From Clostridiaceae bacterium (GTDB lineage: Bacteria > Bacillota > Clostridia > Clostridiales > Clostridiaceae): 64,000 bases of DNA. Of the stretch, positions 23,955 through 44,669 are shown piece after piece. Under the pieces are notes generated by a model. The model saw only the letters and a program-made list of their open reading frames with translations. It was not told the DNA's origin and ran no database searches. Position 1 is the first letter of the stretch. Each line of letters opens with the position of its first letter. The translations under genes were made by a program, and so were the position numbers. The stretch is from positions 22 to 64,021 of the forward strand of contig JAVBPD010000033.1 in NCBI GenBank assembly GCA_031549885.1, read 5' to 3'.

Positions 23955-24671
23955 CTAAGCAATTCCTAAATACATTTTGCGTATGCTATCATCATTTTTT
24001 ATAGTGCCACTATCTCCATGCATAACAATTCTTCCATGTTCTAAAACATATGCGCTATCAGAAATTTCAAGTGTTGTATTGACATTTTGCTCAACAATCA
24101 ATGTGGTAACATTATCCTTCTTTAATTTCATTAGTGTTTCAAATACAAGTACAACATTTTGAGGTGAAAGCCCCATAGAAGGTTCATCAAGCATAATCAT
24201 TTTAGGATTTGCCATTAATCCCCTTGCTATAGCAAGCATTTGGCGCTCCCCTCCAGACATAGTTCCTGCAAGCTGCTTTTTACGTTCAAAGAGCCTTGGA
24301 AATAGTGAATACACATATTCTAAATTTGATTTTATTTTTGCACTATTTCTTATTGTATAAGCACCTAATACTAAATTATCTTCTACAGTCATTGAAATAA
24401 ACAAATTTCTTTCTTCTGGCACAAAACATAACCCTAGATTTATAAGCTCATGAGATTGATATTTTGATAAATCTTTATCACAAAAAAATACCTTACCTGA
24501 TTTTGGTTTTAAAATACCTCCAATAGTCTTTAAAATTGTTGTTTTACCTGCGCCATTTGAACCTAAAAGCGCCACTATTTTTCCATCTGGAATATTTAAT
24601 GAAACATCCCATACAACTTGCAAATTCCCATATGCAATATTTAAATTGTCAACTTTTAGTATAGAAATCAC
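23955..24671 (-). CDS. livF: Branched-chain-amino-acid-type ABC transporter ATP-binding protein (LivF-like)
   Basis: GSNGAGKTT, LSGGERQMLAIARGL, LDEPSMGLSP. Confidence 0.85.
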   Translation of the reverse strand: MISILKVDNLNIAYGNLQVVWDVSLNIPDGKIVALLGSNGAGKTTILKTIGGILKPKSGKVFFCDKDLSKYQSHELINLGLCFVPEERNLFISMTVEDNLVLGAYTIRNSAKIKSNLEYVYSLFPRLFERKKQLAGTMSGGERQMLAIARGLMANPKMIMLDEPSMGLSPQNVVLVFETLMKLKKDNVTTLIVEQNVNTTLEISDSAYVLEHGRIVMHGDSGTIKNDDSIRKMYLGIA

Positions 24672-24707
24672 CCCCTAAATTAGTAATTTCCCATTTTAGC
24701 ATACTTT

Positions 24708-25439
24708 TTAAAGCATGTAATTATCACCTAAATAGGCCTTAATAACTTTTTCATTTGAAACAATATCTTTTGGTATCCCTTCAGCAAGCAATTCACCAAA
24801 ATAAAGCACTGCAATTTTATCACAAACCTCCATAATAAGCTTCATCAAATGTTCAACAATAATTATGGTTACATTTAAAGATTTCCTTACTTTTTTGATA
24901 AGTGTAGTAATATCATTAAGCTCACTAGGTGTTAATCCTGCCGCAACCTCATCTAATATTAAGACTTTGCAATTTGCAGTTAGTGCTCTTGCAAGTTCGA
25001 TTTGCTTTAATTGTACAGTGTTTAAATTTCTTGCAAGAGTCATAGGATCTTGCATAAAACCAACAAATTCAAGGTTCTCTAAGGCCCTTCTTTGAGCTTC
25101 TTCACTAGATTGATGCCCTGCAAAGATACCTCCTACCATAACATTTTGAGCTGCAGTAAAGTCAGGCAACGATTTTACAATTTGAAAAGTTCTACATATT
25201 CCAAGCTGCGCAATCTTATGTGGTTTTAATCCCTTAATATTTTTGCCATTATATAAAATAGTTCCTTGTTCAGGGTTATGCGTACCCAAAATGCAATTTA
25301 ACAAGGTAGTCTTTCCTGCACCATTTGGTCCAATAAGCCCATAAATACTTCCTTCTTCCACTGAAATAGTTACATTTTTATTAGCTTGAAGACCACCAAA
25401 AGATTTAGATACAGAATTTAGTTCCAGTATATTGGGCAT
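24708..25439 (-). CDS. livG: Branched-chain-amino-acid-type ABC transporter ATP-binding protein (LivG-like)
   Basis: SFGGLQA, GPNGAGKTT, ILDEVAAGL. Confidence 0.85.
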   Translation of the reverse strand: MPNILELNSVSKSFGGLQANKNVTISVEEGSIYGLIGPNGAGKTTLLNCILGTHNPEQGTILYNGKNIKGLKPHKIAQLGICRTFQIVKSLPDFTAAQNVMVGGIFAGHQSSEEAQRRALENLEFVGFMQDPMTLARNLNTVQLKQIELARALTANCKVLILDEVAAGLTPSELNDITTLIKKVRKSLNVTIIIVEHLMKLIMEVCDKIAVLYFGELLAEGIPKDIVSNEKVIKAYLGDNYML

Positions 25440-25451
25440 TTTTTTACCCCC

Positions 25452-26765
25452 TTATTTAACGTAGTCTGGTATTACAACATCTTGCTCTTTTTGATTTGCA
25501 GGCCAAACAGGATGCATTTTTCCATCTAAATATTGTATAACTGGGAACATATAATAATCTTGTCCAACTTCCATATCCGGGAAATTTTCAGATGTAAATT
25601 TATATTCTTTATGAACAACTCCATCTGTATAAGTGAGCTTTCCAGTCATTACTTGCTCTTCAGCACACTTCATAAGGTTTTCTGTTGTAAGTTCACCATA
25701 TGTTTCATTAGTTGTTTGAAGAACTTTTATAAAATAATTTGTCCAGTCATAGCACATACCTGCAGTTGATGGACTTGGGTCCATATTAAATTTTGTCTTA
25801 AAATCTTCAACAAACTTTTTAGCCTTATCTGATGTGTATAGTGGAATTTGATCAATTATATAATTCGATGCTTCCCCTGTTAATTCATACCATTCTCCTA
25901 CCCATCCAAGTCCATCCATTATTATCATAGAAGGTAAATTTAACTCTTTTGATTGTTTAATAAATGAAGAACTTGCAGGTGCATCTGACATTGTTCCTAC
26001 CATTAAGCTAACTTCCTTAGATTTAAATTTGTTTAATAGTGGATAATACTCTGTTTCTCCAATTGGAACCCATTCTTCATCTACACATGTCCATCCTTTA
26101 GCTTCAAATGATTCTTTTACAGTTGACCCAAACATTCTTCCCCAGTCTTGGTCAACTCCAAATACTGCAAAGTTTTTATTTTTAGGAGTCCAAAGGCCTT
26201 TTTGTATAGCCTCTTCAATTGTTTCAACATATCCATCTACTAGCTTAGATGGAGTTGGCCATGCTTTTCCTACCCAATATTTATATTTTTCAGGATCTTT
26301 TTGATATTTTTCATTTACTTCAATTCCTGCTCCAAAACTGAAAAAATGAGGCATTTTATACTTTGCTGCAACTTCCATACATGCAACTGATACCCAGCTG
26401 TTCCAATCCATGAAGCCTACATCTATTTTATCTTGAGTAATTGCACGTTCATAAGCTCTAGTAGCTTTTTCAGCATCAGATTCATCATCTATATATACAA
26501 TCTCAATTTTATAATCTCCAACTTTATAATTAATTGCTTCAAATGCCATTTGTGCAGCAGCTTTAAATTCATCACCTACACGAGCCCCTGGTCCTGTAAA
26601 TGGTCCCATCATGCCTACTTTTAAAACCTTTTCACCGCTTCCTGCATTTGCAAAAGCTGATGAATCCGAACCATTTCCTGATTCTGTTTTAGGAGCGCAT
26701 CCGGAAATTGTTGTTAATAAAACCATGCCAAGCATACCAGCAATAACCTTTTTTAACATATACAA
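25452..26765 (-). CDS. LIV-type ABC substrate-binding lipoprotein (periplasmic binding protein type 1)
   Basis: Lipobox LTTISGC. LKVGMMGPFTGPGARVGDEF is typical of LivJ/K-like binding proteins. Confidence 0.8.
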   Translation of the reverse strand: MYMLKKVIAGMLGMVLLTTISGCAPKTESGNGSDSSAFANAGSGEKVLKVGMMGPFTGPGARVGDEFKAAAQMAFEAINYKVGDYKIEIVYIDDESDAEKATRAYERAITQDKIDVGFMDWNSWVSVACMEVAAKYKMPHFFSFGAGIEVNEKYQKDPEKYKYWVGKAWPTPSKLVDGYVETIEEAIQKGLWTPKNKNFAVFGVDQDWGRMFGSTVKESFEAKGWTCVDEEWVPIGETEYYPLLNKFKSKEVSLMVGTMSDAPASSSFIKQSKELNLPSMIIMDGLGWVGEWYELTGEASNYIIDQIPLYTSDKAKKFVEDFKTKFNMDPSPSTAGMCYDWTNYFIKVLQTTNETYGELTTENLMKCAEEQVMTGKLTYTDGVVHKEYKFTSENFPDMEVGQDYYMFPVIQYLDGKMHPVWPANQKEQDVVIPDYVK

Positions 26766-26784
26766 AACCCCTCTTTATTAATTT

Positions 26785-27771
26785 TTATATAACTTTTTTT
26801 CCAAATTTATATTTTAAACTCTCAATAAATCCTGCAATACCTTTTGGATAATAAATCATAATCATAATCATTAGCAGCCCATAAAGTATAATCCTAAATT
26901 CCATAAGACCTTTCATATAATCCATTACAGGTATTAGCACAATAGCACAAAGTAAACTGCCCCATATTTTACCACGACCTCCAATATAAGCAAGCGCCAT
27001 TATTTCCACAGTATTGCTTGTTTGGAATAATTTAGGTAATATAATGCCAGAAAAATGAGCATAAAAAGCTCCAACAAGTCCTCCTATTGCACAAGAAAGT
27101 GTAAAATTTATAATTTTATATTTACTAGGGTCAATTCCAGCTGCTTGAGCTGCTTCAACATCTTGTCCTATGGCTCTAAAGGCTGTACCAATATTTGATT
27201 TTGTAATAACCATCAAAGCTATATATACAGCAATTAGTATTATAAACAAGGTATAGAATATCCCAGTATAAGTTGTTGCATCTATTAATGGATCTACACC
27301 TAATCCTTTTGAACCATCTGTTAAAGAAACCCAGTTTGTGGCAACTGCAAATAATGCAAGTGCCACAAACCAAGTCATACATGATGCAAAAATTCCTCCA
27401 AGTCTTATGGTTAAAAGTCCCAGTAAAAAACCAGCTATCCCTGCTGTTATAAATCCACAAAAAAGGCCAATCCATGGACTCATTCCTAATTTTGTAGAAA
27501 GTATTGCGCTAGTATAAGCCCCAATGCCCCAAAATGCCGAAAAGCCAAAATTTGTAATATTTATAAATCCAGAAGTAAAATCAAATGCCATTGCAAATAC
27601 GCCATACATCATTGCTGATATCATAAGCCTTACAATTGCATTATCTGTTACGAATATGGGTATAAGACCAAGTAATATCAATGAAATTAATCCTACAGGT
27701 GTAAGACCTACTCTTTGTAAATTATTTCTCATGCTAGGATAAAGGCTAGCTCTCTGTAAATCAGTTTTCAT
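26785..27771 (-). CDS. livM: LIV-type ABC permease (LivM-like)
   Basis: Polytopic. Gene order and FGFSAFWGIGAYTSA-type motifs. Confidence 0.8.
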   Translation of the reverse strand: MKTDLQRASLYPSMRNNLQRVGLTPVGLISLILLGLIPIFVTDNAIVRLMISAMMYGVFAMAFDFTSGFINITNFGFSAFWGIGAYTSAILSTKLGMSPWIGLFCGFITAGIAGFLLGLLTIRLGGIFASCMTWFVALALFAVATNWVSLTDGSKGLGVDPLIDATTYTGIFYTLFIILIAVYIALMVITKSNIGTAFRAIGQDVEAAQAAGIDPSKYKIINFTLSCAIGGLVGAFYAHFSGIILPKLFQTSNTVEIMALAYIGGRGKIWGSLLCAIVLIPVMDYMKGLMEFRIILYGLLMIMIMIYYPKGIAGFIESLKYKFGKKVI

Positions 27772-27791
27772 TCAACATTAATCCCTCCTCA

Positions 27792-28691
27792 TTATTCAAC
27801 AGCACTCTTAACACCTTTTTTACCAAAAAGACCATTAGGTTTCACAAGTAGGATAATAATAATAATGCCAAGGCTTATAAGATCCATCCAACCAGAACTA
27901 AAAATGTTTACAGCAACTGTCTCTAAAAATCCTACTATTAATCCACCTACAATTCCAGCCTCCACATTTCCCATACCTACAAGTATTAATACAAACCATG
28001 ATTTATTTAAAGCAGATATACCCATAAGTGGATTAGCAGGAATAATTGATAACAAACATGCTCCTGCTATTGCTGCAAGTGAACAGCTAAGTGCAAATGT
28101 AAGAGTATAAATAAAGCTTAAATTTACGCCAATAAGTTTTGCACCAATTGGATCTTGTGAAACTGCTCTTATAGCTTTTCCTGTTCTTGTATAGTTTAAA
28201 AAATACATAAGAGCTGCAATGGATATAATTGAAACAGCAAAAGCAAAAATCCTATCGTTAGCAACGCTCATTCCAAGAACTTTAAATGAACCATTAAAAT
28301 ATCCTTGTTTAATACCATAGTTTTTAGAACCAGCAATAAGCCTCATTGATTGTTGCATTATGATTGAAAGTCCAAGGGTTAAAAGAAAAGTGTTCATAAG
28401 CCAATTTTTTTGACTTTTCTTTCTTAAAGGTACAAAAAGAACTCTTTCAACAAGTATCCCAAAGATAAAAACAAACACTCCAGCAGCTAAAACGCTGAGT
28501 ATAGGATTAAGCCCTAAAACTATAAATGCAAAATAAGATACAAATGCACCTAACATATAAAATTCACCGTGTGCAAAATTTGCAATATTTATTACACCAA
28601 ATACCAGCGAAAGCCCCACAGCCATCAAGGAATAAAAGCTCCCCCTTAGAATAGAAGTTATAAGTGCATCAACAATATCCAAAAACATCAC
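27792..28691 (-). CDS. livH: LIV-type ABC permease (LivH-like)
   Basis: GSFYSLMAVGLSLVFGVINIANFAHGEFYMLGAF is a typical LivH N-terminus. Confidence 0.8.
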   Translation of the reverse strand: MMFLDIVDALITSILRGSFYSLMAVGLSLVFGVINIANFAHGEFYMLGAFVSYFAFIVLGLNPILSVLAAGVFVFIFGILVERVLFVPLRKKSQKNWLMNTFLLTLGLSIIMQQSMRLIAGSKNYGIKQGYFNGSFKVLGMSVANDRIFAFAVSIISIAALMYFLNYTRTGKAIRAVSQDPIGAKLIGVNLSFIYTLTFALSCSLAAIAGACLLSIIPANPLMGISALNKSWFVLILVGMGNVEAGIVGGLIVGFLETVAVNIFSSGWMDLISLGIIIIILLVKPNGLFGKKGVKSAVE

Positions 28692-28697: not shown

Positions 28698-29918
28698 TTA
28701 TAGATTTTTTACTCCTTCTCTTAAATACTTATTAAGATCTTCTATTGACATATTATCAAGGCCAAGATAGCTAAGCGTATACCCACCTTTAGTCAGGTCT
28801 TTCTTTGAGATAGCATTTGCAAGATGAATCATTGAATCAACCACTGGAGTTTCTACACCATATTTTTTTCCAAGTTGACTATAAACAAAACAACCTACAG
28901 GAATATCCTCAGTTATATAACGGTTTTCCATATTAAATGGACCTGTGCCAAATTGAATTGGATCTTGTGCATCAAATGGAATTAAATAATTAAGTCCCAT
29001 ATATTCTTGACCTAAGACATTTTCACGTGAGAAGAAATGCTCTCTTTCATATGGTTGTATGCCTACTCCTAATTTACTGGCAATCTCGCACTCTTCTAAG
29101 TAAAAGCTGTACTGCACTTCTGAAATAGAATTACAATATGCATGTGAATAAATCGAAAATTTATGTTTGTCATCCCCAAATATCTTTCCATAGTTTTCCA
29201 TTGTAGAGACGCCTAAGATTGTTCCAGGGCAATGAAGTACAGGGTTAACATTAGATAATCCAATGTCTAAAGCAGTATCTCCTTTTACAACTCCATCTCC
29301 TTTTGTAACACCATCCATAGAAGGTAAGAAATTAGCGGTTTCTAAAAAGTCATCTGTATCACAAGCTGGCATTGCAGCTCCTCTTAAAGTTATGGCTCTA
29401 TAATAAACTCTTATTTTATGGGTTATAACACCACCATAAATATCTACTCTTGATCCATATGTCGACGATGACCATCCTCCAACTATGACATTTTTAGTGC
29501 AGTTAGCTTCTTTCATCATTTTTCTAAGTAAAATTGATCCAAAATTATCTGGGAATATGTGTATAACTTGACCATCCTCCAAACATGGTATTAACTTTTC
29601 AAAGAATGGTTTATGTCCAAATGTAGGGGTTCCAATTACTATTATTCCTGCACCCTTAACAGCTTCAGCAACGTCAGTGGTTACTAATTCCATTTTTGCA
29701 AATCCTTCACGTTCAAACCCGTATAAATTTACCTGTTCACCATAAAATTTAATTCCAACTTCTTTAATATTTTTTAATGTTTTTGTTGCAAATGGTTCAA
29801 CATCGCATATTCTAACTTTAGCACCACCGAGTGCACAATCTCCAGCAATTGCTTTTGATACAGCACCAGCTCCTAATACTGCAATAGATTTTTCTTTTAA
29901 ATAATCAAATTTTCCCAT
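28698..29918 (-). CDS. NAD(P)-dependent opine (octopine/nopaline) dehydrogenase-family protein
   Basis: Rossmann motif IAVLGAGAVSKAIAG. The downstream NPVLHCPGTILG motif resembles the opine-dehydrogenase helical domain. ATG at 29918 has a GGAG ribosome-binding site. Confidence 0.6.
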   Translation of the reverse strand: MGKFDYLKEKSIAVLGAGAVSKAIAGDCALGGAKVRICDVEPFATKTLKNIKEVGIKFYGEQVNLYGFEREGFAKMELVTTDVAEAVKGAGIIVIGTPTFGHKPFFEKLIPCLEDGQVIHIFPDNFGSILLRKMMKEANCTKNVIVGGWSSSTYGSRVDIYGGVITHKIRVYYRAITLRGAAMPACDTDDFLETANFLPSMDGVTKGDGVVKGDTALDIGLSNVNPVLHCPGTILGVSTMENYGKIFGDDKHKFSIYSHAYCNSISEVQYSFYLEECEIASKLGVGIQPYEREHFFSRENVLGQEYMGLNYLIPFDAQDPIQFGTGPFNMENRYITEDIPVGCFVYSQLGKKYGVETPVVDSMIHLANAISKKDLTKGGYTLSYLGLDNMSIEDLNKYLREGVKNL

Positions 29919-29940
29919 AAAACACACTCCAAGTTAATAT

Positions 29941-30570
29941 TTATTTAATTAAACTTTTACAAAGCATTACTGCACCACCTGCATCATCTGAATAGCCATC
30001 AGAATTAATTACCTTTGCAAATTCTTCAGAAACAGGAGCTCCGCCAACAATAACTTTTACATCTTTAAACTTATCTTTAATCGCTGCAACAGTTTCTTTC
30101 ATTGCACTCATGGTAGTAGTTAAAAGCGCTGAGAGCCCAACAACATCTGGTTTTTCTTTTTCACAAGCTTCTAAGAAGGTATTAGCGTCTATATCAACAC
30201 CAAGATCGATAACTTTAAATCCGCTTACTTCAAGCATCATGCCAACCAAATTTTTTCCAATATCGTGCAAATCACCTTGTACAGTGCCAATAACAACTGT
30301 TCCAGCAGTACTAATATCACTATCGTTTAATAATGGTTTTATTTCATCAAGTCCCATTTTCATTACATCAGCAGACATCAAAACTTCTGGTATAAACATT
30401 TCACCTGATTCCATTCTAGGTCCAACGATATCCATAGCTGGTATTAAGCCTTTATTTAAAATATCGTTTGCACTTATACCATTATCTAAAGCTTCCTTTA
30501 CAAGTGACACTATTTCTTCATCATCACCATTTATTATACAATTTGTTATTTTTAATAATTGTTCTGACAT
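29941..30570 (-). CDS. Cobalamin-binding corrinoid protein (MtgC/MttC-like)
   Basis: B12-binding DxHxxG motif in GDLHDIGKNLV. About 210 aa with a helical cap plus Rossmann-like domain. AGGAGG ribosome-binding site. Confidence 0.85.
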   Translation of the reverse strand: MSEQLLKITNCIINGDDEEIVSLVKEALDNGISANDILNKGLIPAMDIVGPRMESGEMFIPEVLMSADVMKMGLDEIKPLLNDSDISTAGTVVIGTVQGDLHDIGKNLVGMMLEVSGFKVIDLGVDIDANTFLEACEKEKPDVVGLSALLTTTMSAMKETVAAIKDKFKDVKVIVGGAPVSEEFAKVINSDGYSDDAGGAVMLCKSLIK

Positions 30571-30581: not shown

Positions 30582-31388
30582 CTAAAAATCTAATAATCCA
30601 TTTCTAAATGCTTTTAAATATCTCTTTGTAAATTTATCTCTATTTAATAGAGCCTCTGCGCTATAAATCATAGCCATCATTCTTTTATTGCCTGGATCTA
30701 AAATAGCTCCATCAAGCCCTGCCATTATGCAAAGAGTCAAAAATGTTGAATTTAAAATTCCTCTTTTGGGCAGTCCATAAGAAACATTGCTAAGCCCACA
30801 CATAAAATGTACTTTTGGTTTTTGTGCTACAATTCCTTTAATAGTTTCAATTACTATTACTCCCATGTCCGGAGATGAACTTATTGGCTGAACAAGCGGA
30901 TCCATGAAAATGTCTTCACAAGAAACTCCATCCTCATTAAGCCTATTAATTAATTCAAGCCCAACTTTTACCCTCAAATCTGAAGTTTTAGGCATTCCAA
31001 ATTCATCACTTATGACTAAAGACACGATTTTACCCTTATATTTTTTTACAAGAGGTATTATCCTTTCATAACGCTCATTTTCATTGGTAATAGAATTAAT
31101 CATTGGTACACCTTTGTGTACTTTTAGTGCTGCTTCTAATGCTTCTGGATCTGGGCTATCAATACAGCATGGTAAATTCACAGTTTTTTGAACCGTTTCT
31201 ACAAGCCATGGCAAAGCTTCTACCTCTTCATCAACTAGCGTACCACAATTTACATCGATATAATTTGCTCCAAAATCTGCTTGATATTTTGCAAGATTAG
31301 AAATAAACTCCTCATCTCTTGCAAGCACCGCTTCTGTAACTCCTTTTAAACTTGTATTGATTTTTTCTCCAACAATAATCAAGTTCAT
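30582..31388 (-). CDS. Methylcorrinoid:tetrahydrofolate methyltransferase (pterin-binding, MtgA/MtrH-like)
   Basis: MNLIIVGEKINTS...GANYIDVNCGT is typical of pterin-binding TIM barrels. ATG at 31388 is preceded by AAAGGAGG. Confidence 0.75.
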   Translation of the reverse strand: MNLIIVGEKINTSLKGVTEAVLARDEEFISNLAKYQADFGANYIDVNCGTLVDEEVEALPWLVETVQKTVNLPCCIDSPDPEALEAALKVHKGVPMINSITNENERYERIIPLVKKYKGKIVSLVISDEFGMPKTSDLRVKVGLELINRLNEDGVSCEDIFMDPLVQPISSSPDMGVIVIETIKGIVAQKPKVHFMCGLSNVSYGLPKRGILNSTFLTLCIMAGLDGAILDPGNKRMMAMIYSAEALLNRDKFTKRYLKAFRNGLLDF

Positions 31389-31455
31389 AACCTCCTTTTT
31401 GCCTTTCAAAATATATAGTAGCAATTTCTATGCCTGATTCACTTTCTTTAAAAAA

Positions 31456-32868
31456 TTAATTGATTTTTTCTAAAATACTTTTATCAACTCCAATTTCAAC
31501 CATATATTCATCAAGCTTATCGATGCTGTTTAATTCAGGTTTTTTATAGCTTTCTAAAGCATAATTAGCCTGTGCCCTTAGCTCCTCTGTAAATATTTCA
31601 TTTGCATCTTTATCTTTAGGCACTTTTTTATTTTTACTTACAAGTGGAACCCAAGGGTCTTTTCTAATTCTTTTAAAAGTATGATTATGAGATATAAAGT
31701 TTTTTCCATTAGATGCATCTCTTATGGCATCTAATGCTAATGTCTGGTCATTTACTTCAAGGTCTGAGAAATAATACTGCATTCTTGAAATTGTTTCAAT
31801 GTCTAAAACAAACTTTTCATAGCTCATTGCAGAAAAAGAATCTAAAATGCCAGCAGCATGCATTACAAAATTACCATTTTGAGAAAATGTCTCAAAAATA
31901 CCCATTGCGCTTTCTACCCCAGCTTGCGCACCTACTGCTTTAGCATCTGTTAATGGCCCCCCTGATCTCTTTGGAAATCCATATTTTTCCGAAAGCATTG
32001 CGCCATACTTTGCTTGCTTAGAAAACCCAGGAGATCCAATAGAAACATTCATTGTGGACATGTTTGAAACTGTAGCTGCAAATCCATATACAATAGGAGT
32101 TCCTGGGTTTATAATTTGTGCAAGTGCCATACAAGCTAAGAACTCTGCATTAGCAAGTGCAACATTTCCAGCAAGTGAAATTGGTCCTGTAGCTCCTGCC
32201 ATACATCCTGGAGCTATTATTATAGGTTGATTATTAGAAGCCATTAAATTTAAGGAATCAATCATATTTTTATCTATCATAAGCGGGCTAAGTGGTGAAA
32301 TTAATGTAATTATCCTATAGTTATTTTTAAGATCGTTTTCATCTTCAAATGTTATTTTCACCATATTGATGATATCTTCAACTGATTTTTTAGATCCTGC
32401 TATTCCCAATATGCATTTGTCAGAAAGCTTAATGCTTGAATAAATCATCACTTGATTGCCAATAGATGCATCAATATCATTTGGCTGGGCTAAAATTCCA
32501 CCATTTATTTTAAAAACATCATTCACATGTGTAAGCTTTGCGAAATTAATAAAATCCTCTAAAAGCGCTAACCTTTGATTTCCATTTTGCTGAGCTATTT
32601 TAGCGCACCCAAAGCCTGGCGAAAAATTCATAGTTTTATCACTTATATGCATATCAAATTTATTGTTTCTTGCTTTAATGGTAAACTCTTTTTTAGCCAT
32701 ATTTAAATATTTATTAATTTGATCTTCAGTAAAAAACGCTCTTTGGCCTTCTACTTTTATGCCGTTTTTCTTAAGGAGCTCACATATTTCTGCGCTTTGA
32801 AATTCCATTCCAATTTCTTCTAGTATTTTTATAGAAGCATTGTGAAGCTTTTCAATTTTATTTTCCAT
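31456..32868 (-). CDS. MttB-superfamily (trimethylamine methyltransferase family) protein, non-pyrrolysine, paralog 1
   Basis: 470-aa uninterrupted ORF. N-terminal IEKLHNASIKILEEIGMEF and an MttB-like core. GGAGG ribosome-binding site. Confidence 0.85.
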   Translation of the reverse strand: MENKIEKLHNASIKILEEIGMEFQSAEICELLKKNGIKVEGQRAFFTEDQINKYLNMAKKEFTIKARNNKFDMHISDKTMNFSPGFGCAKIAQQNGNQRLALLEDFINFAKLTHVNDVFKINGGILAQPNDIDASIGNQVMIYSSIKLSDKCILGIAGSKKSVEDIINMVKITFEDENDLKNNYRIITLISPLSPLMIDKNMIDSLNLMASNNQPIIIAPGCMAGATGPISLAGNVALANAEFLACMALAQIINPGTPIVYGFAATVSNMSTMNVSIGSPGFSKQAKYGAMLSEKYGFPKRSGGPLTDAKAVGAQAGVESAMGIFETFSQNGNFVMHAAGILDSFSAMSYEKFVLDIETISRMQYYFSDLEVNDQTLALDAIRDASNGKNFISHNHTFKRIRKDPWVPLVSKNKKVPKDKDANEIFTEELRAQANYALESYKKPELNSIDKLDEYMVEIGVDKSILEKIN

Positions 32869-32910: not shown

Positions 32911-32926
32911 AGCATTTTTTATACCA
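32911..32926 (-). promoter_or_regulatory. Candidate sigma-54 promoter for the MttB1 operon
   Basis: The minus strand reads TGGTATAAAAAATGCT. GG and GC have the correct N10 spacing, but flanking positions match the consensus poorly. Lies about 45 nt upstream of the MttB1 ATG. Confidence 0.45.
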
Positions 32927-32976: not shown

Positions 32977-32991
32977 TGGCATGCAATTTGC
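32977..32991 (+). promoter_or_regulatory. Predicted sigma-54 promoter for the panB-MttB2-racemase operon
   Basis: The plus strand reads TGGCATGCAATTTGC (consensus TGGCACG-N4-TTGC). Lies 58 nt upstream of the ATG at 33049. Confidence 0.7.
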
Positions 32992-33048
32992 TTAATAATC
33001 ATATATTAAAGTCTTTATAAAATAATTATAGAAAGTGAGATTATAAAA

Positions 33049-33894
33049 ATGAAGAAAAAGACAATTCTAGATTTATTTGATATGAAGAAAAAAAAGGAGA
33101 AACTCACTTGGATAACAGCTTATGATTTTCCTATGGCTTCCTTTGCAGAACAAGCTGGAATGGATATGATACTTGTAGGTGATTCACTAGGAATGGTAGT
33201 TTTAGGTTATGATGGCACCGTACCTGTTACTATGGAAGATTGCATAAGCCATTGCCAAGCAGTTAGAAGAGGAGCTCCTAATACATTTGTAATGGGAGAT
33301 ATGCCTTTTGGTTCTTATCAAGTAAGCGCAGAAGAAGCAGTTAAAAATGCAGTTCGCTTTATTAAAGAAGCAAATATGGATGCTGTTAAATTAGAAGGCG
33401 GAAGAGTTGTACTTAATCAAATAAAGGCAATAAGCGATGCTGGTATTGTAGTTTGTGGCCATATTGGTCTTACTCCTCAAAGCTCAGGACAACTTGGAGG
33501 TTTTAAAGCTCAAGGAAGAACTGTGCAAGCTGCAAGAGAATTAATAAGAGATGCTATGGAAATTGAAAAAGCAGGTGCAAGGCTTCTTCTTCTTGAAGCA
33601 ATACCTCCTGAAGTTACAGAATTCATAGCAAATAAACTTACGATACCAGTATATTCAATAGGTGCTGGTCTCCCTTGTGATGGGCAATTAACTATATGCG
33701 GAGATATGTTAGGGATGTTCCAAGCATTTACTCCTAAATTCGTGAAAAAATATGCTAATGTAGCAGAAGTTATAACAAACGCATTTAAAGAGTATGTTAA
33801 AGATATTAAAGAAGAGAAATTCCCTGAAGATAAACATGTTTACCACATTTTAGATGACAAAAGTGATTTTGAAAAAATGTTTCAAGAATTTTAA
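33049..33894 (+). CDS. panB: 3-methyl-2-oxobutanoate hydroxymethyltransferase (ketopantoate hydroxymethyltransferase)
   Basis: Strong resemblance to E. coli PanB along its whole length: TAYD, LVGDSLGMVVLGYD.T.PVT, AVRRGAPN, VKLEGG, CGHIGLTPQS. Confidence 0.85.
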   Translation: MKKKTILDLFDMKKKKEKLTWITAYDFPMASFAEQAGMDMILVGDSLGMVVLGYDGTVPVTMEDCISHCQAVRRGAPNTFVMGDMPFGSYQVSAEEAVKNAVRFIKEANMDAVKLEGGRVVLNQIKAISDAGIVVCGHIGLTPQSSGQLGGFKAQGRTVQAARELIRDAMEIEKAGARLLLLEAIPPEVTEFIANKLTIPVYSIGAGLPCDGQLTICGDMLGMFQAFTPKFVKKYANVAEVITNAFKEYVKDIKEEKFPEDKHVYHILDDKSDFEKMFQEF

Positions 33895-33939
33895 TAAAGC
33901 TTTTGTCTCAAATTGATATAGAGAGGTAGAATAGATATA

Positions 33940-35373
33940 ATGAAAAATTACAGTATTGAAAGGAATATAAACTTCTCTGTTATGTCTCAATCTGATATTG
34001 AGATGATACATGAGAAGAGCTTAGAAGTATTAGAAAGGATTGGTATGAAAATTTCTGGCCAAAGGATGCTCACGCTTTTAAAAGAAGCTGGTGCTACCCT
34101 TGATGGAGAAATAGTTAAAATACCTAGATCTATGGTTGAAAAGGCTCTTAAATCTGTTCCAAAGGAAGTAATAATATACAATAGAAGTGGAGAACCCCAT
34201 ATTATATGCAATAGCAAAAACAATGTATACTTTGGCACACATGCAGATCAACTTGAAATAATTGATCCTTATACCGGAAAGACTCGTAAGTTTTTAAAGA
34301 AAGATACTGAGCTTATGTGCAAAATTGCAGACTTTTTACCAAATATAGATTTTGTTTTATCTGTAGGTTTATCAAGTGATATAGATCCAAAAGTTCAATC
34401 TCAAGTTAGTTTCATTGAAACGGTTAAACACTTTTCAAAGCCAATTAACTTTTCAACTAATAATATAGAATCTCTTCAAGAGATAATTGATATTGCAGCT
34501 ATTGTAGCAGGTGGCAAAGAAAAGCTTCAAGAGAAACCTTTTGTATTTAACTATTGTGAACCAATACCACCGCTTACTCACCCAATTGAGAGCACAGAAA
34601 AGCTTTATATAAGTGCAGAAAATAAAATTCCAGTTGTTTATATGCCATATTGCATGATGGGTGGAACATCTCCAATTAAAAAAGCAGTAACTTTAATACA
34701 ATGTAACTCTGAACTTTTATGCGGTATAGTTATGACTCAGCTTGTAAATGAAGGAGCGCCATTTATTTACGGAGCTATGCCTTCTGTATTTGATATGAAA
34801 ACCAGCATAGGAAGTTATGCTGCACCTGAATTCCATTTGATGATCGCTGCAGCTTCTGAAATGGCTAATTTTTATGGAGTACCATTCTATGGAACGGCAG
34901 CATCAAGCGATTCAAAAAGCCATGATGCACAAATGTTTACAGAAACCTCCTACGAAATTTTATCAACTCTTTTGAGTAAAGCTAATATTGTTCATGATGT
35001 AGGCATATCAGATCACTGCAATAGCGTTTCACCAGTATCCGTAGTTATTGCAAATGAAACTATAGAAATGTTAAAACATTATTCAAAAGGCTTATCGTTT
35101 GACGAAGCTGACCTTGATTTATCCATCTTAGAAGAAGTAGGTCATGGTGGACATTATTTAAATACAAAACAAACCCGTAAGAATTTTAAATCCATATGGT
35201 ATCCTGAATTATTTAGCAGAAAGATGAAAAACCCTGATGATTCTGAGGTAATTCAAAATGCAGTTAATAAAATTAAACATATTTATGAAAATCATAAGGT
35301 TCAGCCTTTAGATGAGTCTATACTCAATAAATTAAATGAAATGCAGAAAAAATATGAGGATTCAGTAAAATAA
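33940..35373 (+). CDS. MttB-superfamily protein, non-pyrrolysine, paralog 2
   Basis: 477-aa uninterrupted ORF. N-terminal IEMIHEKSLEVLERIGMKI parallels paralogs 1 and 3. Confidence 0.85.
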   Translation: MKNYSIERNINFSVMSQSDIEMIHEKSLEVLERIGMKISGQRMLTLLKEAGATLDGEIVKIPRSMVEKALKSVPKEVIIYNRSGEPHIICNSKNNVYFGTHADQLEIIDPYTGKTRKFLKKDTELMCKIADFLPNIDFVLSVGLSSDIDPKVQSQVSFIETVKHFSKPINFSTNNIESLQEIIDIAAIVAGGKEKLQEKPFVFNYCEPIPPLTHPIESTEKLYISAENKIPVVYMPYCMMGGTSPIKKAVTLIQCNSELLCGIVMTQLVNEGAPFIYGAMPSVFDMKTSIGSYAAPEFHLMIAAASEMANFYGVPFYGTAASSDSKSHDAQMFTETSYEILSTLLSKANIVHDVGISDHCNSVSPVSVVIANETIEMLKHYSKGLSFDEADLDLSILEEVGHGGHYLNTKQTRKNFKSIWYPELFSRKMKNPDDSEVIQNAVNKIKHIYENHKVQPLDESILNKLNEMQKKYEDSVK

Positions 35374-35384
35374 GGAGGCGCATT

Positions 35385-36173
35385 ATGTTTTATCAAAGTA
35401 GAGACCTTAAAATAGATTATATGAAAACTCGTAAAAACCACACTTGCTATGGCATGGGCATAGGCATTATGGTTTTAGATGATGCTTATCCTGGTTTTCC
35501 TGGTGATGTAAGAAATGCTAGTGGATTTGGCTATCCTATTCAATATGAAATAGCCGAAGGTGTTGATAATTATACTTTAGTTTGGGAGCAAGATAAAACA
35601 CCTTGCAGAGAACCAATTTTAAGAGCTGCAAAGAAACTTGAAAAAATGGGATGTCGTGCTATTGCTGCTGAATGTGGATATTTTGCTTATTTCCAAAAAG
35701 ATGTTGCAGGCCATGTAGATGTACCTGTATTTATGTCAAGCCTTCTTCAAGTTCCTTTTATACAACAGCTTATAGGGCCTAAAAATTACGTTGGAATAGT
35801 TTGTGCTCAAAAAAGATTTTTAACTGATGTTCATCTTACTAATGTGGGAATTGATTTAAACAGCAACTTCAAAATTGCTGGAGCTCAAGATGAATATGGC
35901 TGCCCTCAATTTGATACTCTATGGGATCATGAAAAAAGGCCAGAAATTCCTGAAAGTTATTACAATAAGTCTGAAGAAGATATGATTAAAATATGCAAGG
36001 CATTTATTCAAAAAAATCCTGAGATAAAAGCTCTTATGTTAGAATGTACGGGAATGCAGCCTTACGCAAGAGCAATACAAAGAGAGCTTGACCTTCCAAT
36101 ATTTAGCTGGGGTACTCTTTTAGATTATGCTTATTCAGTTATAAATCATAGAGAGTATTATGGACATATTTAA
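35385..36173 (+). CDS. Asp/Glu/hydantoin-racemase-superfamily protein
   Basis: IGIMVLDDAYPGFPGDVRNA N-terminus and two candidate catalytic Cys contexts (AAECGYF and LECTGMQ), as in two-thiol racemases and arylmalonate-decarboxylase relatives. Confidence 0.55.
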   Translation: MFYQSRDLKIDYMKTRKNHTCYGMGIGIMVLDDAYPGFPGDVRNASGFGYPIQYEIAEGVDNYTLVWEQDKTPCREPILRAAKKLEKMGCRAIAAECGYFAYFQKDVAGHVDVPVFMSSLLQVPFIQQLIGPKNYVGIVCAQKRFLTDVHLTNVGIDLNSNFKIAGAQDEYGCPQFDTLWDHEKRPEIPESYYNKSEEDMIKICKAFIQKNPEIKALMLECTGMQPYARAIQRELDLPIFSWGTLLDYAYSVINHREYYGHI

Positions 36174-36191
36174 ACCTTATTTATACCTACA

Positions 36192-36226
36192 AAAATAAGT
36201 GCATAATTATTGCACTTATTTTTTAT
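36192..36226. terminator. Bidirectional rho-independent terminator
   Basis: Perfect 12-bp stem AAAATAAGTGCA/TGCACTTATTTT, 7-nt loop, with A- and T-runs on the two sides. Confidence 0.75.
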
Positions 36227-41891: not shown

Positions 41892-41904
41892 GGAGGAAAT
41901 ATTT

Positions 41905-42216: not shown

Positions 42217-42227
42217 AGGAGGTTCTC

Positions 42228-44620: not shown

Positions 44621-44669
44621 GTTGGTCCTCCAATGCTTTCTAAGTAAATTTATAATTTATACTATTCTA

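What the first reader, a model, noticed from the sequence alone, without database searches (positions are those of the whole stretch)
33049..36173. panB in an unusual context: sigma-54-driven operon of ketopantoate hydroxymethyltransferase, a second MttB paralog and an Asp/Glu-racemase-like protein
The first gene is an unmistakable PanB, similar along its whole length to E. coli PanB as I remember it, yet no panC, panD or panE is nearby. It is instead co-transcribed with MttB paralog 2 and a two-Cys racemase-superfamily protein, divergently from the MttB1 operon. PanB uses 5,10-methylene-THF and an alpha-keto acid. The MttB route delivers methyl-THF. Speculative roles: (a) a C1 sink or THF-recycling step linking demethylation to a branched-chain keto acid; (b) PanB run in the retro-aldol direction on a hydroxymethylated keto-acid intermediate; (c) a recruited PanB paralog with altered substrate. 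The racemase-like enzyme suggests that a stereocentre of the substrate or product must be inverted, for example L/D amino-acid interconversion ahead of a D-specific reductase.
Basis: partly seen in the sequence, partly recalled or inferred. Interest (0 to 1): 0.65.

Follow-up and report, generated by a model that had tools for sequence, protein, structure and literature searches.

The report
Catabolic PanB in a betaine-demethylation operon
A copy of the vitamin-B5 enzyme PanB sits in a sigma-54-controlled gene cluster for breaking down a methylated amino-acid-like compound, and comparison with about 100 related loci suggests it runs backwards there, splitting a one-carbon unit off a keto acid onto folate.

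Summary
Window 33049-36173 (+) encodes a full-length PanB, a non-pyrrolysine MttB (MttB2) and a two-cysteine Asp/Glu-racemase-fold protein (Rac). They lie between a sigma-54 promoter and a terminator, divergent from MttB1, a methyl-THF:corrinoid methyltransferase, a corrinoid protein, an opine-dehydrogenase-like enzyme (ODH) and a Liv-type ABC transporter. A sigma-54 activator gene and rpoN flank the cluster.

This PanB belongs to a tight clade: 65-99% identity across Clostridia, Halanaerobiales, Peptococcaceae, Synergistota and Desulfobacterota, against about 40-44% to E. coli and M. tuberculosis PanB. No panC or panD occurs in 1.45 Mb of flanking DNA from 93 loci. Some genomes carry two or three copies. 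Its recurring neighbours are enzymes that make 2-oxo acids and genes of the folate/formate one-carbon pathway. The ODH-MttB2-Rac-PanB module recurs in at least 11 loci from three phyla.

Best reading (inferred, not assayed): MttB enzymes demethylate a chiral amino-acid betaine, Rac inverts it, ODH oxidises it to a 2-oxo acid, and PanB runs in reverse to release methylene-THF. Homoserine betaine is a candidate substrate. No published description was found. Whether this genome has a second, biosynthetic panB could not be checked.

The parts
20785..22518 (+). Sigma-54 enhancer-binding activator (AAA+ Sigma54_activat, HTH_8; N-terminal 276 aa has no Pfam match)
   Evidence: Pfam PF00158 214 bits. 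EBP homologues flank the module in L002, L052, L054, L061, L078, L092 and L099.
22540..23844 (+). rpoN (sigma-54 factor)
   Evidence: Pfam Sigma54_AID, Sigma54_CBD and Sigma54_DBD. Also adjacent in L001 (72% identity).
23955..28691 (-). Liv/Urt-type ABC importer: two ATPases (23955-24671, 24708-25439), substrate-binding protein (25452-26765) and two permeases (26785-27771, 27792-28691)
   Evidence: Pfam ABC_tran, Peripla_BP_6 and BPD_transp_2. Conserved with the module in L001, L052, L054, L061, L078, L083, L087, L089 and L095. Replaced by BCCT carriers in L092 and L099.
28698..29927 (-). Opine-dehydrogenase-like NAD(P) oxidoreductase (ODH)
   Evidence: Pfam Octopine_DH 103 bits. Best PDB match is N-(1-D-carboxyethyl)-L-norvaline dehydrogenase, 1bg6; residues aligned to its His202, Arg292 and Asp297 are conserved. 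Orthologues at 63-92% identity in L001, L002, L010, L052, L054, L061, L078, L081, L087, L089 and L092; Octopine_DH-domain genes also in the triads of L095 and L099.
29941..30570 (-). Corrinoid protein (B12-binding, MtgC-like)
   Evidence: Pfam B12-binding and B12-binding_2; NCBIfam MtgC-type 213 bits, below its cutoff.
30582..31424 (-). Methyl-corrinoid:tetrahydrofolate methyltransferase (MTII, pterin-binding)
   Evidence: Pfam Pterin_bind; NCBIfam NF005719 328 bits against a cutoff of 259.
31456..32868 (-). MttB1, an MtgB-like non-pyrrolysine methyltransferase
   Evidence: PF06253 358 bits. 39% identical to D. hafniense MtgB, with its glycine-betaine-binding residues retained (Y97 becomes F; R312, H348 and F356 kept) (residue roles from PMC13080624).
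32911..32926 (-). Sigma-54 -24/-12 promoter for the MttB1 operon (TGGTATAAAAAATGCT)
   Evidence: One of only two pattern matches in the 64-kb window; correct strand and position.
32977..32992 (+). Sigma-54 -24/-12 promoter for the PanB-MttB2-Rac operon (TGGCATGCAATTTGCT)
   Evidence: Conserved at -58 to -69 in five related loci, against a background of 0.007 matches per 400 nt.
33049..33894 (+). PanB-family ketopantoate hydroxymethyltransferase, member of a catabolism-associated clade
33940..35373 (+). MttB2, a divergent non-pyrrolysine MttB subfamily lacking the conserved substrate-carboxylate arginine
   Evidence: PF06253. 31% identical to MtgB. Y or F at the R312 position and C at the F356 position in all 13 MttB2-type homologues at 49% identity or more.
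35385..36173 (+). Two-cysteine Asp/Glu/hydantoin-racemase-fold protein (NCBIfam PRK07475 subfamily)
   Evidence: An MttB gene is adjacent to or near it in 11 of 13 Rac-centred loci.
36191..36223 (+). Terminator-like hairpin between the convergent Rac and pyrimidine-nucleoside phosphorylase genes
   Evidence: 13-pair stem followed by a T-run.

Best explanation
The region is one half of a sigma-54-regulated, substrate-inducible catabolic regulon for a chiral, N-methylated amino-acid-type compound, most likely an alpha-amino-acid betaine.

Proposed flow (every step is inferred; none was assayed):
1. Uptake by the Liv-type ABC transporter (BCCT carriers in some relatives).
2. Corrinoid-dependent demethylation by the MttB enzymes through the corrinoid protein and the pterin-binding methyltransferase, giving methyl-THF. 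MttB1-type enzymes would act on the quaternary betaine. The arginine-less MttB2 would probably act on a later, less methylated intermediate.
3. Inversion of the alpha-carbon by the two-Cys racemase-fold protein.
4. NAD(P)-dependent oxidative C-N cleavage by the opine-dehydrogenase-like enzyme, giving a 2-oxo acid plus methylamine or dimethylamine.
5. PanB running in the reverse of its biosynthetic direction. It removes the C3-hydroxymethyl group of that 2-oxo acid as 5,10-methylene-THF and leaves pyruvate or another simple 2-oxo acid.

The C1 unit then joins the folate/formate pathway. The simplest substrate that fits every step is homoserine betaine, through 4-hydroxy-2-oxobutanoate. That identification is a guess.
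For: Shown by tools:
- The PanB is intact. The seven residues recalled as the E. coli catalytic and Mg-binding set (D45, S46, D84, K112, E114, H136, E181; roles from memory of the 1m3u structure) are invariant in 70 clade members.
- The clade is 65-99% identical across three phyla, against about 40-46% to E. coli and M. tuberculosis PanB. All source annotations call it PanB.
- No PanC or PanD homologue occurs in the window or in 93 related loci, 1.45 Mb in total.
- Two clade copies were found in each of six assemblies, for example L024/L050 and L058/L059. Tandem copies occur in L033 and L040.
- Of 80 PanB-centred loci, 18 carry Fhs, FolD, FchA, FolT or a formate channel; 4 carry formate dehydrogenase; 28 carry DoeA-like, EutB-like or M20 genes of the ectoine-utilisation type; 20 carry a Glu/Leu/Val-type dehydrogenase; 8 carry an aminotransferase; 6 carry IlvD or ApbA. 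Every recurrent enzymatic neighbour either makes a 2-oxo acid or processes C1-THF or formate.
- The ODH-MttB2-Rac-PanB module recurs in L001, L002, L010/L099, L052, L054, L061, L078, L083, L087 and L092. These are Clostridia, Desulfosporosinus, Ca. Formimonas, a brine contig and Desulfobacterota.
- In loci found through MttB2 or Rac, not through PanB, PanB lies within 10 kb in 4 of 5 informative cases. These include more distant PanBs (65% and 53% identity).
- In the cultured Maledivibacter halophilus M1 the module lies between IclR-PanB-FolT-formate channel and FolD plus a molybdopterin oxidoreductase.
- In L093 the ODH is replaced by an OCD/SbnB-like enzyme, another oxidoreductase acting on the C-N bond of N-substituted amino acids.
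- The ODH retains the residues aligned to His202, Arg292 and Asp297 of CENDH.
- Two divergent sigma-54 promoters, an activator gene and rpoN are present.

From established knowledge:
- The PanB reaction is reversible in vitro and accepts other 2-oxo acids (Powers and Snell 1976, recalled from memory).
- Opine dehydrogenases generate a D-centre (name of PDB 1bg6).
- Stepwise demethylation of glycine betaine to dimethylglycine and then sarcosine by corrinoid systems has been proposed for strain DCMF (PMC9768040).
Against: - No enzyme activity, expression data or substrate is known for any member.
- The first-shell active site is indistinguishable from biosynthetic PanB. The only clade-specific changes are second-shell (A83G, L85M, V179L, M215C, H216G in E. 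coli numbering), judged against just two reference sequences. Sequence therefore gives no positive sign of a changed substrate.
- Proximity to C1-folate genes does not by itself fix the direction of flux.
- One module locus (L089) has no PanB within 10 kb.
- Many Rac-MttB loci use other downstream enzymes such as an aminotransferase or AFOR. PanB therefore belongs to only one branch of these pathways.
- Known non-pyrrolysine MttB enzymes act only on quaternary amines, so the proposed second demethylation by MttB2 is unprecedented.
- The Liv-type binding protein is not a typical betaine binder.
- Whether this genome has another panB is unknown.
Confidence: 0.5

Rival explanations
1. C1 sink, forward direction. 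Methyl groups delivered to THF are oxidised to methylene-THF. PanB condenses them with the 2-oxo acid released by ODH, for example 2-oxoisovalerate from valine betaine. The product is ketopantoate or an analogue, which recycles THF in organisms that cannot dispose of methyl-THF otherwise.
For: The forward reaction is the known physiological one, and the active site is canonical. The cluster makes methyl-THF through the pterin-binding methyltransferase. C1-folate gene neighbours are compatible with flux in either direction.
Against: - Oxidising methyl-THF to methylene-THF is energetically unfavourable.
- The product would be a dead end: neither panC, panD nor a committed reductase accompanies the gene.
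- Sulfate reducers and the acetogen-like DCMF, which carry the module, need no such sink.
- The same clade sits in clusters with no methyl donor. These hold hydrolases, dehydratases, deaminases, importers, Fhs and a formate exporter, which reads as catabolism feeding the C1 pool.
Confidence: 0.17
2. Ordinary biosynthetic PanB. It is the organism's housekeeping ketopantoate hydroxymethyltransferase, and its position beside the MttB genes is incidental or serves only CoA supply.
For: It scores above the NCBIfam panB equivalog cutoff. The aligned active-site residues are all conserved. Every source annotates it as PanB. A second panB in this genome could not be looked for because the contig is 64 kb.
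Against: - The linkage to ODH, MttB2 and Rac is conserved across three phyla, including more distant PanBs (53% and 65% identity).
- No panC or panD was found in 1.45 Mb of flanks.
- Several assemblies carry two or three copies.
- Identity between phyla of 65% or more is far above the 46% between E. coli and M. tuberculosis PanB, which points to horizontal spread as part of catabolic islands.
- It is under sigma-54/activator control.
Confidence: 0.08
3. Retro-Mannich variant. PanB cleaves a 4-amino- or 4-(methylamino)-2-oxobutanoate, not a 4-hydroxy acid, and passes the aminomethyl carbon to THF with release of ammonia or methylamine. The module's substrate would then carry its nitrogen at C4.
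For: 28 of 80 clade loci are ectoine/hydroxyectoine-type clusters: a DoeA-like M24 protein (522 bits), EutB above its cutoff (430 against 413) and a DoeB2-like M20 protein. Their expected product is 2,4-diaminobutyrate. They also hold a glutamate-dehydrogenase-like enzyme directly beside PanB. MttB2 lacks the arginine that binds a carboxylate close to the quaternary nitrogen. The Liv-type binding protein would suit a free alpha-amino acid.
Against: No such PanB chemistry is known. The opine-dehydrogenase-like partner argues for an N-substituted alpha-amino group, not a distal one. An unknown 316-aa protein always follows PanB in the ectoine-type clusters and could convert the amine first.
Confidence: 0.1

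Closest known systems
Biosynthetic ketopantoate hydroxymethyltransferase PanB (E. coli 1m3u, M. tuberculosis 1oy0)
   Same: Same family and length. 40-44% identity. Residues aligned to E. coli D45, S46, D84, K112, E114, H136 and E181 are identical. The chemistry is presumably the same: a methylene-THF-dependent aldol reaction at C3 of a 2-oxo acid.
   Different: Never linked to panC or panD. Present in multiple copies and spread horizontally. Embedded in inducible catabolic clusters. Proposed to work in the cleavage direction, possibly on a 2-oxo acid other than ketopantoate.
Non-pyrrolysine MttB systems for quaternary amines (MtgB, MtpB, MtcB, MtyB and MthB of D. hafniense and E. limosum)
   Same: The same three-component logic of an MttB-type methyltransferase, a corrinoid protein and a methyltransferase passing the methyl to THF. 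MttB1 keeps the MtgB substrate-binding residues.
   Different: The known systems remove one methyl group and excrete the product. Here two or three MttB paralogues are joined to a racemase-fold protein, an opine-dehydrogenase-like enzyme and PanB, which implies further breakdown of the carbon skeleton. MttB2 replaces R312 with Tyr or Phe, although that arginine is reported as conserved in all characterised members (PMC13080624).
Aerobic proline-betaine and hydroxyproline-betaine catabolism (Hpb pathway: 2-epimerase, then demethylases, then a D-amino-acid oxidase)
   Same: The logic of inverting the alpha-centre of a betaine or of its demethylated product before a D-specific oxidative C-N cleavage (recalled from Zhao et al. 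2013).
   Different: Unrelated enzymes: an enolase-superfamily epimerase, Rieske and flavin demethylases, all oxygen-dependent. There is no folate-capturing lyase step.
Opine dehydrogenases (CENDH 1bg6, octopine dehydrogenase 3c7a)
   Same: Same Pfam domain. The residues aligned to the recalled catalytic His/Arg/Asp of CENDH are conserved. They carry out NAD(P)-linked interconversion of a secondary amine with a 2-oxo acid plus an amine.
   Different: Only 76 bits to CENDH. The context is catabolic and corrinoid-linked. The proposed amine partner is methylamine or dimethylamine, not an amino acid.
THF-dependent C1-capturing catabolic enzymes (serine hydroxymethyltransferase, GcvT, DmdA) and class II 4-hydroxy-2-oxo-acid aldolases
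   Same: The proposed physiological role: C-C or C-X cleavage that delivers a formaldehyde-level carbon to THF, or cleavage of a 4-hydroxy-2-oxo acid to pyruvate.
   Different: Different folds. The aldolases release free formaldehyde, whereas PanB would trap it on folate, which allows ATP gain through Fhs.
Ectoine/hydroxyectoine utilisation clusters (DoeA/EutD, DoeB, EutB)
   Same: The most frequent alternative context of this PanB clade holds DoeA-like, DoeB2-like and EutB proteins, and sometimes a PRK07475 Rac paralogue.
   Different: Those clusters lack MttB genes. They replace the aerobic DoeC/DoeD steps with PanB, a glutamate-dehydrogenase-like enzyme and an unknown 316-aa protein. They are not present in the window.

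Membership tests
PanB / ketopantoate hydroxymethyltransferase (PF02548, TIGR00222) | Full-length match above the curated family thresholds | tested here: met
   PF02548 362 bits against a cutoff of 28.7. TIGR00222 328 bits against 207.55. NF001452 352 bits against 272.
PanB / ketopantoate hydroxymethyltransferase (PF02548, TIGR00222) | Mg-binding and catalytic residues (E. coli D45, S46, D84, K112, E114, H136, E181; roles recalled from the 1m3u structure paper) | tested here: met
   Invariant in the window protein, 70 clade members and 6 tandem paralogues.
PanB / ketopantoate hydroxymethyltransferase (PF02548, TIGR00222) | Role in pantothenate biosynthesis (linkage with panC, panD or panE; sole copy) | tested here: not met
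   No PanC or PanD homologue in the window or in 93 loci. ApbA/PanE appears only in the tandem-PanB/IlvD/TRAP context. Several assemblies carry multiple copies. Sole-copy status in this genome cannot be tested because the contig is 64 kb.
PanB / ketopantoate hydroxymethyltransferase (PF02548, TIGR00222) | Methylene-THF-dependent hydroxymethyl transfer to or from 2-oxoisovalerate | not testable with these tools
   Needs an enzyme assay.
MttB superfamily, non-pyrrolysine quaternary-amine methyltransferases | MTTB TIM-barrel domain without an in-frame amber codon | tested here: met
   PF06253 at 245 bits (MttB2) and 358 bits (MttB1); both ORFs are uninterrupted.
MttB superfamily, non-pyrrolysine quaternary-amine methyltransferases | Cognate corrinoid protein and corrinoid:THF methyltransferase encoded nearby | tested here: met
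   29941-30570 and 30582-31424 in the divergent operon.
MttB superfamily, non-pyrrolysine quaternary-amine methyltransferases | Arg312 (MtgB numbering) salt-bridging the substrate carboxylate, reported as conserved in all characterised members, plus the aromatic pair Y97/F356 | tested here: not met
   The verdict applies to MttB2, the gene in the finding. In MttB2 the R312 position is Y, H348 is kept and F356 is C. The Y97 position is H in the phmmer alignment and A in the MAFFT alignment. All MttB2 orthologues have Y or F at 312. MttB1 meets the feature: F, R, H, F.
Asp/Glu/hydantoin racemase superfamily (PF01177) | Family HMM match | tested here: inconclusive
   PF01177 31.4 bits against a cutoff of 31, which is marginal. 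It is a strong member of the uncharacterised NCBIfam subfamily NF005679/PRK07475, 272 bits against 231.
Asp/Glu/hydantoin racemase superfamily (PF01177) | Two-domain racemase fold | tested here: met
   Model pLDDT 74.7. The top 30 Foldseek PDB matches are all hydantoin, aspartate, glutamate or allantoin racemases or arylmalonate decarboxylase, with probability 1.00 and TM about 0.45-0.58.
Asp/Glu/hydantoin racemase superfamily (PF01177) | Pair of catalytic cysteines, one in each domain | tested here: inconclusive
   Cys97 (AAECGYF) and Cys221 (LECTG) are invariant in 35 homologues and present in the 32-36% paralogues. Their superposition on the catalytic cysteines of a solved racemase was not checked.
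Ectoine-utilisation protein EutA | Match to the NCBIfam EutA model | tested here: not met
   No EutA hit at E<=1e-3 for Rac, nor at E<=1e-5 for its paralogues in ectoine-type clusters.
Opine dehydrogenase family (PF02317) | Octopine_DH C-terminal domain plus an N-terminal Rossmann domain | tested here: met
   PF02317 103 bits; NAD_Gly3P_dh_N 23.2 bits.
Opine dehydrogenase family (PF02317) | Catalytic His, Arg and Asp (CENDH His202, Arg292, Asp297; roles recalled from the literature) | tested here: met
   All three align to identical residues: NVNPVLH and NRYITED.
Opine dehydrogenase family (PF02317) | Substrate is an N-(carboxyalkyl) amino acid | not testable with these tools
   Needs an assay. 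N-methyl or N,N-dimethyl amino acids are proposed instead.
Sigma-54-dependent promoter | GG-N10-GC -24/-12 element upstream of the operon, with an activator gene and rpoN in the genome | tested here: met

The most novel reading that the evidence does not exclude
A widespread, horizontally spread clade annotated as PanB is really a catabolic, folate-dependent lyase. It cleaves C3-hydroxymethyl (or aminomethyl) 2-oxo acids to a shorter 2-oxo acid plus methylene-THF. This would be the shared last step of several undescribed anaerobic pathways: for amino-acid betaines (this operon), for ectoine and hydroxyectoine, and for branched or C4 sugar acids. In this operon it would complete the first full anaerobic mineralisation route for a chiral betaine such as homoserine betaine. 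The route would use a new MttB subfamily that demethylates a non-quaternary intermediate, a new racemase subfamily and an opine-dehydrogenase-type N-methyl-amino-acid dehydrogenase.
Probability: 0.3. Interest if true: 0.85.

Novelty: new variant of a known kind. Interest (0 to 1): 0.7.

Why it matters
**Annotation.** PanB is a textbook biosynthetic enzyme, and every database entry for this clade carries that name. If the clade is catabolic, thousands of annotations are misleading: the search scored the capped set of 8000 candidates and all reached E <= 1e-30. Metabolic models of anaerobic amino-acid fermenters, halophiles and sulfate reducers would also miss a route that conserves a formaldehyde-level carbon on folate and yields ATP through formyl-THF synthetase.

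**Fate of betaines.** The cluster bears on what happens to abundant methylated osmolytes in anoxic marine, hypersaline and gut habitats. Known MttB systems stop after one demethylation. This module appears to carry the carbon skeleton through to central metabolism.

**MttB substrates.** MttB2 orthologues lack the arginine thought to be universal in the family. They are candidates for a new substrate class, which matters for the trimethylamine and methylamine budgets studied in gut and sediment microbiology.

**Testability.** Cultured carriers exist, so the hypothesis can be tested directly: Maledivibacter halophilus M1, Desulfosporosinus lacus DSM 15449, D. fructosivorans and Desulfocicer niacini.

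Tried and rejected
**Literature.** Searches gave no paper linking MttB with PanB, opine dehydrogenase or a racemase, and none on a catabolic PanB or on homoserine-betaine catabolism.
- The E. maltosivorans paper mentions only lactate racemase.
- The DCMF proteomics paper does not mention this locus.
- The report of a folate-cleaving side activity of PanB concerns folK-panB clustering and does not explain these contexts.

**Sequence searches against solved structures.**
- Rac matched no solved structure by sequence.
- The unknown 316-aa partner of PanB in the ectoine-type clusters also matched nothing.

**EutA.** Rac and its paralogues do not match the EutA model, so that membership was rejected.

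**Metagenome scan with MttB2.** It returned only 5 loci, 4 of them too short to be informative.

**Active-site comparison.** It gave no first-shell difference from canonical PanB. The second-shell differences rest on two reference sequences and are not interpretable.

**Glycine betaine as substrate.** It was considered because MttB1 keeps the MtgB site. It was set aside because an achiral substrate explains neither Rac nor PanB.

**Proline or hydroxyproline betaine as substrate.** These were considered because the OCD/SbnB-like substitution in L093 would fit imino acids. They were set aside because their oxo-acid products offer PanB no hydroxymethyl group.

**Internal promoter.** The sigma-70-like match (11 of 12) at 33913-33941 between PanB and MttB2 is not above the shuffled expectation (19 found against 17.4).

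Full report
**1. What is in the window**

The window has about 30% G+C. Its other genes are typical of Clostridia: spoIIM, xerD-type recombinase, deoB-like and pdp.

ORFs at 33049-33894, 33940-35373 and 35385-36173 on the + strand encode three proteins.
- **PanB.** PF02548 scores 362 bits, and the TIGR00222 equivalog scores 328 bits against a cutoff of 207.55.
- **MttB2.** A non-pyrrolysine MttB-family protein; PF06253 scores 245 bits.
- **Rac.** A 262-aa protein of the uncharacterised NCBIfam subfamily PRK07475 (272 bits against a cutoff of 231), with a marginal Asp_Glu_race Pfam hit.

The gene gaps are 45 and 11 bp. A 13-pair hairpin with a T-run at 36191-36223 follows the last gene.

The divergent operon on the - strand encodes:
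- MttB1 (31456-32868);
- a pterin-binding methyl-corrinoid:THF methyltransferase (30582-31424);
- a corrinoid protein (29941-30570);
- an opine-dehydrogenase-like protein, ODH (28698-29927);
- a five-gene Liv/Urt-type ABC importer (23955-28691).

Beyond that lie a sigma-54 enhancer-binding protein (20785-22518) and rpoN itself (22540-23844).

A -24/-12 pattern (TGGYAYN5WTGCW) matches only twice in 64 kb. Both matches fall in the 180-bp intergenic region, one on each strand, each facing its operon. The + strand element is conserved 58-69 nt upstream of PanB in five related loci, against a background of 0.007 matches per 400 nt.

No panC or panD is present (tblastn with the E. coli proteins). 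No ApbA/PanE domain was seen in the 50 window ORFs scanned with Pfam; four were not scanned.

**2. The PanB is intact but belongs to an unusual clade**

It is 40% identical to E. coli PanB and 44% to M. tuberculosis PanB. It keeps every residue aligned to E. coli D45, S46, D84, K112, E114, H136 and E181. The roles of those residues are recalled from the 1m3u structure paper.

A scan of one genome per GTDB species returned 80 loci at 70-92% identity to the window protein. They come from Clostridia, Halanaerobiales, Desulfosporosinus and Ca. Formimonas (Peptococcaceae), Synergistaceae and a Desulfosarcina MAG.
- Within 70 full-length members, pairwise identity runs from 65 to 99% (median 76%).
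- E. coli and M. tuberculosis PanB share 46%.
- Six assemblies contribute two loci each.
- L033 and L040 carry three PanB genes in tandem.
- In the protein database, more than 120 clusters at 90% identity lie at 77% identity or above. All named ones are called 3-methyl-2-oxobutanoate hydroxymethyltransferase.

The same search shows that the window's contig is 64,159 bp.

**3. What travels with this PanB**

I called ORFs in all 80 loci, clustered them and annotated representatives.

No PanC or PanD homologue occurs in 1.45 Mb of window plus 93 loci. The recurrent neighbours form two groups.

*Folate and formate C1 genes:*
- formate-THF ligase, FolD, an FTCD_C cyclohydrolase, a folate-family ECF S component (TIGR04518, 115 bits against a cutoff of 60) and a formate/nitrite-family channel, found in 18 loci;
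- a NuoEF-type formate dehydrogenase, found in 4 loci.

*Enzymes whose product is a 2-oxo acid:*
- a Glu/Leu/Val-type dehydrogenase (20 loci);
- a class I aminotransferase (8 loci);
- IlvD with an ApbA-type reductase (6 loci);
- a fused Fe-S serine-dehydratase-like protein (5 loci);
- a PLP dehydratase that passes the NCBIfam EutB cutoff (430 bits against 413), together with RidA;
- the opine-dehydrogenase-like protein of this window.

Twenty-eight loci, mainly Halanaerobiales, look like ectoine/hydroxyectoine utilisation clusters. They carry a DoeA-like M24 protein (522 bits), a DoeB2-like M20 protein, EutB and a TRAP or BCCT transporter. In them PanB, a glutamate-dehydrogenase-like enzyme and an unknown 316-aa protein stand where aerobes have DoeC and DoeD.

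This pattern is what one expects of an enzyme that takes a 2-oxo acid and hands a C1 unit to folate. It is not the pattern of a vitamin-biosynthesis gene.

**4. The module of the finding is conserved**

*PanB-centred loci.* ODH, MttB2 and Rac orthologues accompany PanB in these loci:
- L001 (Clostridiaceae MAG; same gene order as the window);
- L002 (Defluviitaleaceae MAG);
- L010 (Maledivibacter halophilus);
- L052, L054 and L061 (Desulfosporosinus);
- L078 (Ca. Formimonas warabiya DCMF).

*Searches that did not start from PanB.*
- A metagenome scan with MttB2 gave one long locus, from a brine: MttB2-Rac-PanB-Liv ABC-MttB.
- Look-ups of 11 Rac homologues gave 13 loci.
  - Eleven have an MttB gene beside or near Rac.
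  - Five contain the ODH-MttB2-Rac triad: L087 (Desulfocicer niacini), L089, L092, L095 and L099.
  - Of those five, L087, L092 and L099 have PanB within 10 kb, L089 does not, and L095 is cut off.
- The PanBs of L087 and L092 are only 65% and 53% identical to the window's, so the link is not confined to one sublineage.

*A cultured carrier.* In Maledivibacter halophilus M1 the order is IclR-PanB-FolT-formate channel-EBP(-)-ODH-MttB2-MttB-BCCT-Rac-BCCT-MttB-FolD-molybdopterin oxidoreductase. This puts the methyltransferase module and the C1-folate genes in one locus.

*Substitutions.*
- In L093 the ODH is replaced by an ornithine-cyclodeaminase/SbnB-like enzyme. This is another NAD-dependent oxidoreductase acting on the C-N bond of N-substituted amino acids.
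- In other Rac-MttB loci the downstream enzymes are an aminotransferase and an aldehyde:ferredoxin oxidoreductase.

Rac-MttB is thus the tightest pair, and ODH-PanB is one of several downstream branches.

**5. The partners in more detail**

*MttB1* is 39% identical to D. hafniense MtgB. It keeps the residues shown to bind glycine betaine: Y97 becomes F, while R312, H348 and F356 are retained (PMC13080624).

*MttB2* is 31% identical to MtgB. In every orthologue it has Tyr or Phe at the R312 position and Cys at the F356 position. The cited paper states that R312 is conserved in all family members of known function, all of which act on acidic quaternary amines. MttB2 therefore probably binds its substrate differently or binds a different class of substrate. 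Most module loci contain both an MttB1-type and an MttB2-type gene.

*ODH* matches CENDH (1bg6) best and keeps the residues aligned to its His202, Arg292 and Asp297. The catalytic roles are recalled from the literature.

*Rac* has no sequence match in the PDB. Its model (pLDDT 74.7) hits only racemase-superfamily structures. Cys97 and Cys221 are invariant. It is not EutA.

**6. Most likely mechanism (inference)**

1. The ABC or BCCT transporter imports a chiral amino-acid betaine or a related N-methylated amino acid.
2. The MttB proteins, with the corrinoid protein and the pterin-binding methyltransferase, move methyl groups to THF. Stepwise demethylation of glycine betaine to dimethylglycine and sarcosine by such systems has been proposed for strain DCMF, although the enzymes are not assigned (PMC9768040). 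The two MttB classes here could divide that labour.
3. Rac converts the L-form to the D-form. Opine dehydrogenases act on secondary amines and create a D-centre at the carbon derived from the oxo acid, as the name of 1bg6 states. A racemase ahead of ODH therefore makes stereochemical sense.
4. ODH would release a 2-oxo acid and a methylamine.
5. PanB is reversible in vitro and tolerant of other 2-oxo acids (Powers and Snell 1976, from memory). It would then remove a C3-hydroxymethyl group as methylene-THF.

The one widespread natural betaine whose oxo acid has that group is homoserine betaine. It is a compatible solute of Trichodesmium, the head group of DGTS lipids, and has been measured in sea water (papers listed). 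Its oxo acid, 4-hydroxy-2-oxobutanoate, would give pyruvate plus methylene-THF.

A C4 skeleton would also fit two of the other contexts:
- 2,4-diaminobutyrate, derived from ectoine;
- the oxo acids made by IlvD-type dehydratases from C4 and C5 sugar acids.

The substrate identity is a guess. The direction of the PanB step is an inference from context.

**7. Rivals**

- **C1 sink in the forward direction.** This cannot be excluded from sequence. It gives a dead-end product and does not explain the non-methylotrophic contexts.
- **Plain housekeeping role.** This is contradicted by the conserved linkage, the copy number, the absence of panC and panD, and the regulation. It cannot be formally excluded for this genome.
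- **Retro-Mannich variant on a 4-amino-2-oxo acid.** The ectoine-type clusters suggest it.

**8. Novelty**

Seven full-text searches found no description of a catabolic PanB, of an MttB-ODH-racemase-PanB cluster, or of homoserine-betaine degradation. All parts belong to known families, so this is a new variant of known kinds. It comprises a new physiological role for a PanB clade, a new MttB subfamily and an uncharacterised racemase subfamily, assembled into an undescribed pathway.

**Verdict.** Interest is 0.7.

Noticed in passing
window 32911-32926 (-): A second sigma-54 -24/-12 element (TGGTATAAAAAATGCT) faces the MttB1 operon. The two divergent operons therefore appear to be co-regulated by the same activator.
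   Followed up: partly
window 40884-43622 (+): A third MttB paralogue (42228-43622) follows an EamA transporter gene and a 103-aa ORF with no Pfam match. It has none of the first three MtgB substrate residues (L, T and C at positions 97, 312 and 348) and is only 24-28% identical to MttB1 and MtgB.
   Followed up: partly
L020, L024, L026, L028, L031, L038, L039, L041, L053, L072, L075 (Halanaerobiales and relatives): The same PanB clade heads clusters with a DoeA-like ectoine hydrolase, a DoeB2-like deacetylase, EutB (above its NCBIfam cutoff), RidA, a TRAP transporter, a glutamate-dehydrogenase-like enzyme and a conserved 316-aa protein with no Pfam, NCBIfam or PDB match. This looks like an undescribed anaerobic ectoine/hydroxyectoine pathway that ends in a folate-dependent C1 release.
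   Followed up: partly
L011, L033, L040, L046: Two or three PanB paralogues (45-47% identical to the clade copy) lie in tandem with IlvD, an ApbA/PanE-type reductase, a TRAP transporter and a GntR regulator. This may be a pathway for a branched or hydroxymethylated acid. No panC or panD is present.
   Followed up: no
L087 16059-16718; L089 17651-18391 (Desulfobacterota): A cupin matching Pfam DMSP_lyase (PF16867) and an AraC/DJ-1 regulator follow the ODH-MttB-Rac-ABC module. One locus comes from Desulfocicer niacini, which I recall being reported to demethylate DMSP and glycine betaine. A sulfonium or elimination step may be linked to the module.
   Followed up: no
L090, L093, L096, L097, L098: Highly conserved Rac homologues (about 76-77% identity) sit beside MttB genes but with other downstream enzymes: an OCD/SbnB-like dehydrogenase, an aminotransferase, a DAO-type oxidase, an aldehyde:ferredoxin oxidoreductase, Opp-type ABC transporters and an MtaA-like methyltransferase. 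This suggests a family of Rac-MttB pathways for different methylated amino compounds.
   Followed up: partly
window 51485-56247 (-): Two tandem SAM hydroxide adenosyltransferase (PF01887) paralogues lie next to an ECF transporter module: CbiQ-like T component, fused double ATPase and a riboflavin-type S component.
   Followed up: no
window 33913-33941 (+): A near-consensus sigma-70-like promoter match (TTGATA-17-TATAAT, 11 of 12) lies between PanB and MttB2. It could be an internal promoter, but such matches are not enriched over shuffles in this AT-rich DNA.
   Followed up: no
window 43682-51115 (-): An unrelated carbohydrate cluster: a GH127 beta-L-arabinofuranosidase, an AraC regulator, two ABC sugar permeases and, at 49694-51115, an ORF not scanned here whose position suggests a binding protein, plus an S9/S33 hydrolase.
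   Followed up: no
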